Shown here piece after piece: positions 57,901-63,738 of a DNA stretch of 64,000 bases. The stretch lies in contig CM082583.2 of the NCBI GenBank assembly GCA_040954595.2, positions 13,552,391-13,616,390 of the forward strand. The letters are read 5' to 3'. Below the pieces are notes generated by a model. The model made no database searches. It was not told the DNA's origin and was given only the letters and a program-made list of their open reading frames with translations. The translations under genes were made by a program, and so were the position numbers. The stretch's first letter is position 1; each line of letters opens with the position of its first letter. Origin of the DNA: Balanoglossus misakiensis (taxonomy: Eukaryota > Animalia > Hemichordata).

Positions 57901-60900
57901 TGAACGTCAAAGCAGAAACTAGGAACGGATTGTTATTTTTCACAGAAAATTATCCAGCCAGCACCTTGATGGCTGTGGAAGTGGTGAATGGCCATCCTGT
58001 GTTTAGATATAATTTGGGACAAGACTTGGTATCTGTGGAAAGTCCAGTTGACATCTGTTGCAATGAATGGTATGAGATATTTGCCACAAGGTTCGTTATA
58101 TTATCATTTTCTCTACCCCTCTTATTATAACTGTTGCAAATACCTTTATTCACCCAAGTCCCAATATACATACTGGTAGTGATGGGACAGGGAGTGTCCG
58201 CATACACAGGCAAGTGATTGGTTGTAATTGGCATTGCAGATCCAACAAAGTGCTTTGATAAACAGACTGCAAGATGAACTACTACACTTTGCCACATTGA
58301 TTTTGACAAGTCCAATGCAAATATCATAGCAGATGGCCCGCATATTTTGATCCATTTTTTTCTAATGCTTTAATTTGCAGATATAGTTATGAAGGCCGCC
58401 TCTCGGTGAAAGATATGACTACTGGTGGTGCATCAGAAGATTATGGTAGGAGTGTTGTAACTTATGAAAGATATCTCCAGCTTGGTACATCTAATCTGTT
58501 GTATGTTGGTGGTCTGCCTGTGGAGTATCAGGTATATGTTAGTTTCTTCTTTCTAAGTGGCAAATGCCCATTGTCCTCTTTTCTCTACCATCAGCATATT
58601 ATATTTGGTAATCATCACAGTCAGTAACATATTTACAATTGGTGATTTTTATATCCATTTTTGGAAATTGCACATCTAATTATAACCTTGTGTTTTATCA
58701 ATAGTTAAATTTGACCAAGGATGCATCTCCTGAGGTAAGTTTCACCTCAATTATTTTTACTGTTCAATTATTTGAGAATGCCAGGAGACACTGCTAATAA
58801 TATACATTATGCAATTGTAAGACGTTATAACCTTCCATATAGGCATGTTGTACAATGACAGTAATGTTCTGTAGCTGTAGGTTTGGGACAGCACACAGTA
58901 AAAAGAACAAATTTAAAGTTCTCTGGCTTATCAAATTACTAAATGGTCAGTACAATTTATCTGATTACTGATTATCGCAATACATACCTGACTTCAAGCA
59001 AGACAACAGCCAACATTTATCTTTAATAATTGATTGTATTAAAGTCATTTAAATTTGTGTTAAGATTTGTAACTAGATGTGTCAGTGTAGTCCATACATT
59101 TATTTTGAATTTGTGGGAGACGATGGTGATTGTGAATTTTTCCATTATGTCCAAAAGACCCAATGCATTCATTCATTTGTTTGTTCAACCATTTGTTTGT
59201 TTGTTTGTTTGTTTGTTTGTTTGTTCATTGATTGATTGATTGATTGATTGATTGATTCATTCATTCATTCATTCATTCAGGGAGTGAGTGAGTGGGTGGG
59301 TGGGTGGGTGGGTGAGCAATTGAGTGAGTATATGAATTATGAGTAAAAGAAGAAATATTTATGTGCATGTCTGTGTCACTGTCATTGTCTATAGTGAGAG
59401 TGAGAGTAAGCGAGACAGACAGACAGACAGACATTTTATATGTTTTTCTGTAATGTTTATTTGTATTACAATAGAAAATAGAAAACCAAGTGAACATATT
59501 GTATAAATAAGTGCCAATATAGCAAGTGCATGTTCCAACATAATGGCTAATTTGAACATTTTTCATATATCATGCAGATATCCAATTCAATAACACAGGT
59601 ATAGACCCTTCTAGTTGTGATAGTGTATTTATGGGAAATAATTTGACTGCATGCATGAATGTTGGCTTTGCATTCTGAGGTATTTGATTCTTGGCTCTGG
59701 GAAGGATTATTTGGATGAAATGCATGCTTTTGATAAGAAGGATCTTGTTTGTACCACAGTGTTTTTGTTTGTTTAATCCATTCAAATTGTTTAGATAACT
59801 GTTTTATTCTGTTTTCATTTACTTGTACTGATATTCCCAGCTCTGTGGGTGTATGCAACTGTCTTCTTTAGAATCTTGACTTTGTCTTGTATGTTCTGAG
59901 AAAAATAAATCGTTTGCTGATCTTCTCAAAACTTTAATTGGAATAATGAGAATTGGCTGTCGTAATGGTACTACTGTTGAATGTCTTTCTTCTTGTTGAC
60001 ATATACTTCCATGACAATTTTTGGTGAAAATCAGAAAAATGTGTCATAAAAGTACTTATAGCATGTTCATTCTTGTAATGTGTGCTGTAACAAGAGCTCA
60101 ACTCAATATACATGTTGTTTCATCAAAACAACATGGAAAATCTAATGAATCAACAATAACCGAAATAAGGTCAAAACTAGACTTGGCACTCTTGATATAT
60201 CTAAAACCTGTTTTTCACATGAATAAGCTAAGCATGCAAACTAATTCAAGAACAGATCAAAAGACCTATAAAGTACAAAAAATGATAACTTTTAGAGCAA
60301 TATGATTATTTTTTTGACAAGTATGGTTTATGCAATATGTCTTTTCCACAGCTTGACCAGGCACAGCTGATTGAGGTAATTTAAGCCTTCAACAAAAACA
60401 CTACGTGTAGTCATACAGCATGCCTTTGTAATCTTCATCATTTATTTGATATTTCAAGTGGTAATCCCATTTTGAAAAATGTTTTATCTACTGAGAGATA
60501 GTGATCTAAGGAGCTCATAGCTTCTGATGTGCTTTCTTTTAAAGTAATCTTTGTCTGCTCTGGCTCATTGATATCAATGCAGAGCATTTGATCTTCAGAA
60601 AATGATTTTAAGGAGCTACCATTATTCAAACATCAAAAATTCCATCAGATTGCATAATGTATGCATGTTTGTTAGGGCAGATACCATCAGAATCAACTGT
60701 AAGTTCAACATATTTGGGGCAAATGCGAGCTTACTGTAAAGTTTCTCTGCCAATATCTACTACAAAGGGTATCCCCAAATAGTTTACCTCAGTTCATATT
60801 TGTTGCCTCATAAATACTTGGCACTTTGTGGAAGTTATTGGATATGAGCAAGAACAGAATTATTTACAGTGTTAGAGAGTTGAAATAATATGTCAAAATA

Positions 60901-63738: not shown

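What the first reader, a model, noticed from the sequence alone, without database searches (positions are those of the whole stretch)
58532..60961. Three in-frame mini-exons in one loop of laminin LG1, reminiscent of agrin/neurexin splice inserts
Seen: this unusually long (2.4 kb) phase-0 intron lies between ..LYVGGLPVEYQ and TNAVFNRDFVGCL.. It contains three stop-free, phase-0 units with good splice sites: 30 nt LNLTKDASPE, 21 nt ISNSITQ and 24 nt LDQAQLIE. TGCATG (Rbfox) motifs occur downstream of the latter two (59648, 59652, 59721, 60662). Direct joining already gives a normal LG sequence, so these would be optional or mutually exclusive inserts. Established: short inserts in LG domains switch ligand binding in agrin (z8/z11/z19) and neurexins, and laminin LG1-3 form the integrin site. 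Inference: a splice code for laminin receptor binding. I am not aware of this being described for laminin alpha chains.
Basis: partly seen in the sequence, partly recalled or inferred. Interest (0 to 1): 0.72.

Follow-up and report, generated by a model that had tools for sequence, protein, structure and literature searches.

The report
Acorn-worm laminin stacks three micro-exons
An acorn-worm laminin gene carries three real mini-exons, shared with other acorn worms, which a relative's gene models stack in different combinations to lengthen one predicted floppy loop at the cell-binding end of the protein; this likely tunes which partners can reach that surface, and a mammalian laminin has a spliced mini-exon in the matching loop of the next domain.

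Summary
The three units (30, 21, 24 nt) are real coding micro-exons. Ptychodera flava and Glandiceps models carry matching peptides of the same lengths and order; Saccoglossus carries units 1 and 3. Among 8 acorn-worm models, unit 1 is in 8, unit 3 in 7, unit 2 in 4, and the direct join in none. P. flava has isoforms 1+2+3, 1+3 and 1 only, so the units are additive, not mutually exclusive. They lengthen the loop after LG1's GG strand from 16 to 26, 34 or 41 residues; 8 of 8 non-hemichordate orthologues keep 15-19. Unit 1 adds LG1's only N-glycan sequon (4 of 4 species). The loop is predicted disordered. It is not the calcium-side site used by agrin z, LG1 lacks the calcium aspartates, and integrin alpha6beta1 binds laminin alpha5 at LG2. 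There is a precedent: mouse Lama2 exon 53 (12 nt) is spliced in the same loop of LG2. The gene belongs to a third laminin-alpha clade, separate from alpha1/2 and alpha3/5. No RNA reads were available, so splicing in this species, tissue control and any effect on binding are inferred. New variant of a known kind.

The parts
36927..63738 (+). Laminin alpha-like gene (LN, LE repeats, L4, coiled coil, LG1, LG2, start of LG3); it runs past the end of the window
   Evidence: Model with the three units: 2,544 codons, no stop, 77.9% identical to P. flava X1 with two one-residue gaps; Pfam domains
57655..58090 (+). Exon: end of coiled coil and first half of LG1
   Evidence: Pfam Laminin_G hits; 82% to P. 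flava; boundaries
58381..58531 (+). Upstream constitutive exon, ending just after the GG strand of LG1
58705..58734 (+). Micro-exon 1 (30 nt, 10 aa); carries an N-x-T sequon; present in 8 of 8 acorn-worm models
   Evidence: 9/10 identical to P. flava, 7/10 to Glandiceps, 6/10 to Saccoglossus; strongest donor of the three
59578..59598 (+). Micro-exon 2 (21 nt, 7 aa); skipped in P. flava X2 and X3; has an NxI tripeptide here and in P. flava but not in Glandiceps
   Evidence: 5/7 to P. flava, 2/7 to Glandiceps; weakest donor
60352..60375 (+). Micro-exon 3 (24 nt, 8 aa, acidic); skipped in P. flava X3
   Evidence: 5/8 to P. flava, 2/8 to Glandiceps, 3/8 to Saccoglossus
60962..61153 (+). Downstream constitutive exon: GC strand, the Trp that docks on the coiled coil in laminin-111, LG1-LG2 linker
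59364..60667 (+). Six TGCATG motifs (59364, 59527, 59648, 59652, 59721, 60662); possible Rbfox sites, borderline excess
60681..60698 (+). Fourth in-frame AG..GT candidate (18 nt); probably not an exon
   Evidence: Lower splice score, another AG 3 nt upstream, no match in any of 8 models

Best explanation
These are three conserved acorn-worm micro-exons in a laminin alpha-like gene that are likely spliced in additively (1, 1+3 or 1+2+3) to lengthen one predicted flexible surface loop of LG1, which likely works as an adjustable, glycosylated shield over that face of the domain. Shown: the exons, their conservation, the three combinations in P. flava gene models, loop lengths of 26, 34 and 41 against an ancestral 16, and the N-x-T sequon in unit 1. 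Predicted: the loop is disordered and the LG fold is intact. Inferred: unit 1 is near-constitutive and glycosylated; units 2 and 3 are regulated by tissue or stage; a longer, more acidic loop changes access of a receptor or matrix partner by bulk and charge rather than by creating a new binding motif.
For: Unit 1 in 8 of 8, unit 3 in 7 of 8, unit 2 in 4 of 8 acorn-worm models; exact lengths kept in three genera. Loop of 15-19 residues in 8 of 8 non-hemichordate orthologues and 15-20 in all 29 other rows (five of these may be aligned by another LG domain). The sequon is kept in 4 of 4 species while its middle residue varies, is the only one in LG1 of the three proteins scanned and occurs in 2-6% of 10-mers of these LG regions. 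Two other orthologues (Owenia, one unnamed) have a sequon in the short loop, so it tolerates a glycan. AlphaFold: pLDDT under 50 across the insert, no helix, core about 90, pTM 0.82. Units 2 and 3 keep length and unit 3 its negative charge (-2 to -3) but only 2-3 identical residues at depth. Precedents: Lama2 exon 53 in the same loop of LG2, spliced differently in embryonic and fetal human heart (figure legend and one sentence); neuroligin site B, a glycan-bearing 9-residue insert that restricts alpha-neurexin binding.
Against: No RNA evidence for this species. The isoforms are RefSeq gene models, and their read support was not visible to me; only P. flava shows clean skipping, the two Saccoglossus models differ by an unexplained 4 residues, and each other species has one model. 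Low pLDDT may reflect the few aligned sequences that hold the insert. No partner is identified, and the position of the loop relative to the coiled coil and receptor face could not be measured. TGCATG excess is borderline.
Confidence: 0.5

Rival explanations
1. Real exons, little function: unit 1 is a constitutive lineage-specific loop extension, and skipping of units 2 and 3 is tolerated in-frame noise in a floppy loop.
For: Units 2 and 3 diverge fast (2/7 and 2/8 to Glandiceps, against 64% over the gene); the loop is predicted disordered; unit 2 is missing from both Saccoglossus models; regulatory motifs are weak.
Against: Three separate exons with exact lengths and phase kept in three genera; unit 3 stays acidic; a parallel, developmentally changing micro-exon exists in LAMA2.
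Confidence: 0.3
2. Agrin-type switch: unit 2 supplies an NxI motif that docks into the beta-propeller of an LRP-family receptor or nidogen, so only 1+2+3 transcripts would make a signalling laminin.
For: Additive logic matches agrin z8 + z11 = z19, and z8 acts through NxI in a loop that is flexible until bound. Unit 2 has N-S-I in the window and in P. flava.
Against: Glandiceps unit 2 has Ser in place of the Asn and Saccoglossus lacks the unit; 3-7% of 7-mers carry NxI/V by chance; different loop from agrin z and no calcium aspartates.
Confidence: 0.1
3. One reading: the inserts directly form or block the integrin or dystroglycan site.
For: LG1-3 is the integrin region, LG1 surfaces near the gamma tail are conserved and glycan-free, and MCAM binds an LG1 strand of alpha4; a new LG1 glycan could interfere. 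The coiled-coil-docking Trp is kept.
Against: The alpha5 contact with integrin alpha6 is the bottom of LG2; dystroglycan binds LG4-5 through calcium, and this LG1 lacks the aspartates.
Confidence: 0.08
4. The units are chance AG..GT matches in an ordinary intron.
For: Three 3-nt decoys elsewhere score higher on splice sites than any unit.
Against: Each unit encodes the best match to a relative's peptide among more than 10,000 windows, in the right order.
Confidence: 0.02

Closest known systems
Mouse/human LAMA2 exon 53 (12 nt, residues 2476-2479 in mouse; PMC2755686, bioRxiv 10.1101/2025.03.21.642423)
   Same: In-frame alternatively spliced micro-exon in the loop right after the GG strand of a laminin alpha LG domain: residue 2475 is position 344 of the 2WJS chain, which ends the GGLP stretch.
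   Different: One exon of 4 residues in LG2 of an alpha1/2-class chain, against three additive exons (25 residues) in LG1 of a different alpha clade; independent origin is inferred.
Agrin z (B) site, z8/z11/z19 (PMC6966886)
   Same: Adjacent micro-exons that add up inside an LG domain loop that is flexible when unbound.
   Different: z8 lies about 48 residues before the first calcium ligand, near the calcium site, and carries a required NxI motif. Here the inserts come after the position of the last ligand, the aspartates are absent, NxI is in 2 of 3 species, and no insert-free form was seen.
Neurexin LNS splice sites and neuroligin-1 site B (PMC6856630, PMC3084293)
   Same: Short inserts that change ligand binding; site B is a 9-residue glycan-bearing loop that restricts alpha-neurexin binding.
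   Different: Other proteins and other loops (SS2A extends LNS2 strand 9; the calcium-rim position of SS3 and SS4 is recalled, not checked). Neuronal regulation is shown there and unknown here.
Ptychodera flava laminin subunit alpha-like XP_070542659-63; Glandiceps XP_077988585; Saccoglossus A0ABM0M073 and XP_077863235
   Same: Orthologues; public models already contain these exons and three combinations.
   Different: Automatic annotation only; I found no paper on the inserts.

Membership tests
Laminin alpha chain | LN, LE repeats, L4, about 600-residue coiled coil, five LG domains | tested here: met
   Orthologue P0007: 16 LE stretches, one L4, five LG; LN hits on window exons though not on the whole protein; long helices before LG1
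Laminin alpha chain | LG1 Trp that docks into the heterotrimer coiled coil (alpha1 Trp2293) | tested here: met
   Pattern found in 12 of 13 proteins scanned, including all of this clade; present in the window exon
Laminin alpha chain | Assembles with beta and gamma chains and binds integrin | not testable with these tools
   Needs protein work
Laminin alpha1/2 or alpha3/5 class | Groups with either class in a tree of coiled-coil end plus LG1-2 | tested here: not met
   Separate clade of 12 rows, 100/99; alpha1/2 99/97; alpha3/5 96/95; Glandiceps and Saccoglossus have separate genes in those classes
Agrin z-type LG splice switch | Adjacent micro-exons included additively | tested here: met
   P. 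flava X1, X2, X3
Agrin z-type LG splice switch | Insert at the N-terminal loop close to a calcium site | tested here: not met
   Insert follows the GG strand; positions of alpha2 Asp2189 and Asp2268 hold no Asp
Agrin z-type LG splice switch | Conserved NxI/V motif in the insert | tested here: inconclusive
   In unit 2 of 2 of 3 species that have the unit
Agrin z-type LG splice switch | Neuron-specific inclusion that switches receptor binding | not testable with these tools
   No RNA run was available and no binding assay can be run
LAMA2 exon 53-type LG loop micro-exon | In-frame micro-exon in the loop between the GG strand and the GC strand | tested here: met
LAMA2 exon 53-type LG loop micro-exon | Same domain and gene class (orthologous exon) | tested here: not met
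   LG1 against LG2; different alpha clade
Rbfox- or SRRM/eMIC-regulated micro-exons | Enriched TGCATG downstream, or TGC close upstream of the acceptor | tested here: inconclusive
   TGCATG p 0.05-0.07; TGC at -36, -5 and -21, and within -40..-6 in 31% of ordinary acceptors; motif definitions are recalled

The most novel reading that the evidence does not exclude
Acorn worms run a three-exon additive splice code on LG1 of a third laminin alpha class, not found among the vertebrate and arthropod hits here. It arose independently of LAMA2 exon 53 in the same loop, which marks that loop as a recurrent regulatory site of laminin G domains. Tissue-specific inclusion switches receptor binding, possibly through unit 2's NxI motif docking on an LRP-type propeller as agrin z8 does.
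Probability: 0.2. Interest if true: 0.75.

Novelty: new variant of a known kind. Interest (0 to 1): 0.48.

Why it matters
Laminin diversity is usually put down to chain choice and proteolysis; the 2024 review passages I saw name only alpha3A/3B and LaNt as splice variants. A conserved three-exon cassette in LG1, together with the little-studied LAMA2 exon 53 in the same loop of LG2, points to LG-loop splicing as a repeated way to tune laminins. It gives a direct test in mammals (LAMA2 with and without exon 53) as well as in acorn worms. The host gene is itself notable: a third alpha clade in hemichordates, a crinoid, amphioxus, annelids, molluscs and a nemertean.

Tried and rejected
No whole genome is held for this window. 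No RNA holder was listed, so no reads were laid; this is no evidence either way. A search with the upstream 50-residue exon for transcript fragments up to 2,000 residues found nothing (weak, since it also missed the known Saccoglossus protein). Mutual exclusion was rejected. The fourth candidate 60681-60698 was rejected for now. No other hidden micro-exon: the model has only two one-residue gaps against P. flava X1. AG-exclusion zones of the units (78, 49, 28 nt) lie within the range of ordinary acceptors (18-224). Fold searches confirmed the LG fold (Z 23.7, rmsd 2.3, 177 aligned, agrin LG3) but give no coordinates, so the loop could not be placed against integrin. No complex prediction was sent, because no candidate partner sequence was in hand. 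Ten literature searches showed no paper on these inserts or on a third alpha class; Fahey and Degnan 2012 is not held and Talts 1998 was seen only as a reference, so either may already cover part of this. The weak Pfam delta-endotoxin hit at residues 584-694 (below or at threshold level, no passing stretch) is read as a beta-sandwich short-arm domain.

Full report
Observation. The span between the flanking exons is 2,430 nt, second longest of 37 introns modelled for this gene in the window (median 329). A weight matrix trained on the other 36 introns ranks the units 4th, 5th and 8th among 908 in-frame AG..GT decoys (2,803 decoys of any length), so splice sites alone would not prove them.

The units are conserved coding exons. 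The first protein search returned a Saccoglossus protein with peptides matching units 1 and 3 side by side at this site. Full-length searches added Ptychodera flava and Glandiceps talaboti. The five P. flava RefSeq isoforms give three forms: X1, X4 and X5 with 1+2+3, X2 with 1+3, X3 with unit 1 only; X2 and X3 differ from X1 by nothing else. Glandiceps has 1+2+3. A newer Saccoglossus model has 1+3 with four other residues between them, which I cannot explain. Over these 8 models unit 1 is in 8, unit 3 in 7, unit 2 in 4, the direct join in 0. Each window unit is the best match to its P. flava peptide among more than 10,000 stop-free intronic windows; for Glandiceps the ranks are 1, 4 and 3, and 1 among AG..GT-bounded windows. 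With the three units the window model reads 2,544 codons without a stop at 77.9% identity to P. flava X1. That RefSeq isoforms usually rest on transcript alignments is recalled; their support was not visible here. No RNA run was available for this species, so its own splicing pattern is inferred.

The gene. It has LN, LE, L4, coiled-coil and, in the orthologue, five LG domains. A tree of the coiled-coil end plus LG1-2 (27 rows, 495 columns; six rows dropped because their best match looked like LG2-3 or was uncertain; the profile used to cut the region was built from eight members of this clade) puts the window next to P. flava (100/99). Both sit in a clade of 12 rows from hemichordates, a crinoid, amphioxus, annelids, molluscs, a nemertean and one unnamed sequence (100/99), apart from alpha1/2 (99/97) and alpha3/5 (96/95), with a Xenia chain beside it under a midpoint root. 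Glandiceps has a separate alpha1/2-type gene and Saccoglossus a separate alpha3/5-type gene. So this is an acorn-worm member of a third alpha class. I found no paper naming it, but could not read Fahey and Degnan 2012.

The loop. The inserts fall between the strand ending in GG and the strand starting with GC. That loop has 15-19 residues in 8 of 8 non-hemichordate orthologues (one model each) and 15-20 in all 29 rows outside the acorn-worm genes. The direct join would give 16, the modelled forms 26, 34 and 41. The cassette is therefore inferred to be an acorn-worm gain. AlphaFold models of Saccoglossus (1+3) and P. flava LG1 (1+2+3) keep a confident LG fold and leave the insert as coil with pLDDT under 50 (residues 562-578; 159-176, pTM 0.82); few aligned rows hold the insert, which lowers confidence by itself. 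Unit 1 carries an N-x-T sequon in 4 of 4 species, the only sequon in LG1 of the three relatives scanned; 2-6% of 10-mers in these LG regions have one. Unit 3 is acidic in 4 of 4; units 2 and 3 share only 2-3 identical residues with Glandiceps.

Is it agrin or neurexin again? The additive logic is the same as z8 + z11 = z19 (PMC6966886, passages). The site is not. Agrin's z8 motif (Asn1892, Ile1894) lies before the first calcium ligand (Asp1940) and near the calcium site. The inserts here come after the position of the last ligand, and the positions of laminin alpha2 Asp2189 and Asp2268 (PMC2755686, parts 1-2 of 4 and passages) hold no Asp in this clade's acorn-worm members. In the alpha6beta1 complex, laminin alpha5 meets integrin at the bottom of LG2 (PMC8241838, passages and one section). 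LG1 is not out of play: surfaces of LG1 and LG2 beside the gamma tail are conserved and glycan-free (PMC5343747, passages), and MCAM binds an LG1 strand of alpha4 (bioRxiv 10.64898/2026.09.11.751044, passages). Unit 2 has an NxI tripeptide in the window and P. flava but not in Glandiceps, and 3-7% of 7-mers have one by chance: a lead only.

The precedent. The crystallised mouse alpha2 LG1-3 lacks residues 2476-2479, exon 53, marked as alternatively spliced. The construct starts with four vector residues and residue 2136, so chain position 344 is residue 2475, and that position ends the GGLP stretch of LG2 in the alignment. The exon is thus in the same loop, one domain on. Human LAMA2 exon 53 is listed as differently included in embryonic and fetal heart (bioRxiv 10.1101/2025.03.21.642423, one sentence and a figure legend; its supplements were not seen). 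Three stacked exons in LG1 were not found in print. Neuroligin site B shows how a short glycan-bearing insert can restrict binding by bulk (PMC3084293, passages). Other papers seen as passages only: PMC5580876, PMC6856630, PMC11260871, PMC4582122, PMC11200632.

Mechanism and odds. The exons are real (about 0.97) and units 2 and 3 are likely alternatively spliced in this species (about 0.85, from P. flava). The most likely working is an adjustable shield: a near-constitutive glycosylated extension, with optional spacer and acidic segments that change access to one face of LG1 (0.5). Tolerated variation without function is the main rival (0.3). A motif-based switch through NxI (0.1) or a direct integrin or dystroglycan switch (0.08) are less likely. 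None of the functional steps is shown.

Verdict. Observation confirmed, interpretation partly supported. New variant of a known kind; interest 0.48. The exons are already in automatic gene models and LAMA2 gives a precedent, but the additive cassette, the reuse of the same loop and the third alpha class make a testable lead.

Noticed in passing
window 36927-63738 and proteins P0011, P0017, P0039, P0065, P0071, P0089, P0064, P0021: The host gene belongs to a well-supported third laminin alpha clade across ambulacrarians, amphioxus and spiralians, with a Xenia chain beside it; none of the vertebrate, arthropod or nematode rows in the tree falls in it.
   Followed up: partly
window 44782-45789; P0006, P0008: The odd N-termini of P. 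flava X4 and X5 weakly match a shifted frame of exon 44782-45040 (43% over 37 residues, E 0.011), which suggests frame-breaking splicing in the next intron rather than a second promoter. That intron holds four TGCATG motifs, and X4 and X5 differ by 12 residues.
   Followed up: partly
P0010 residues 570-573: The newer Saccoglossus model has four aromatic/hydrophobic residues between units 1 and 3, unlike unit 2; a shifted donor, a divergent exon or a model error.
   Followed up: no
window 59192-59432: Run of five tetranucleotide microsatellites in the intron between units 1 and 2; they create some high-scoring decoy splice sites.
   Followed up: no
window 62241-62273, 57580-57594, 56552-56572: In-frame AG..GT decoys that score as well as the real units but match no gap against P. 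flava or Glandiceps.
   Followed up: partly
window about 3000-14000 (+): Endophilin-like gene: BAR and SH3 exons.
   Followed up: no
window about 18100-23700 (-): PhzF-like gene; two similar stretches near 18100-18300 and 18930-19230 and a repeated intronic block at 21225-21850 appear in the frame list.
   Followed up: no
window about 29200-30900 (+) and 31000-34200 (-): A small EGF-containing membrane-protein gene (membrane segment judged by eye) tail to tail with a Cys-loop ligand-gated ion channel gene.
   Followed up: no
window 25775-26170 (-): Open frame of 132 residues with two hydrophobic stretches and an acidic tail; no Pfam match.
   Followed up: no
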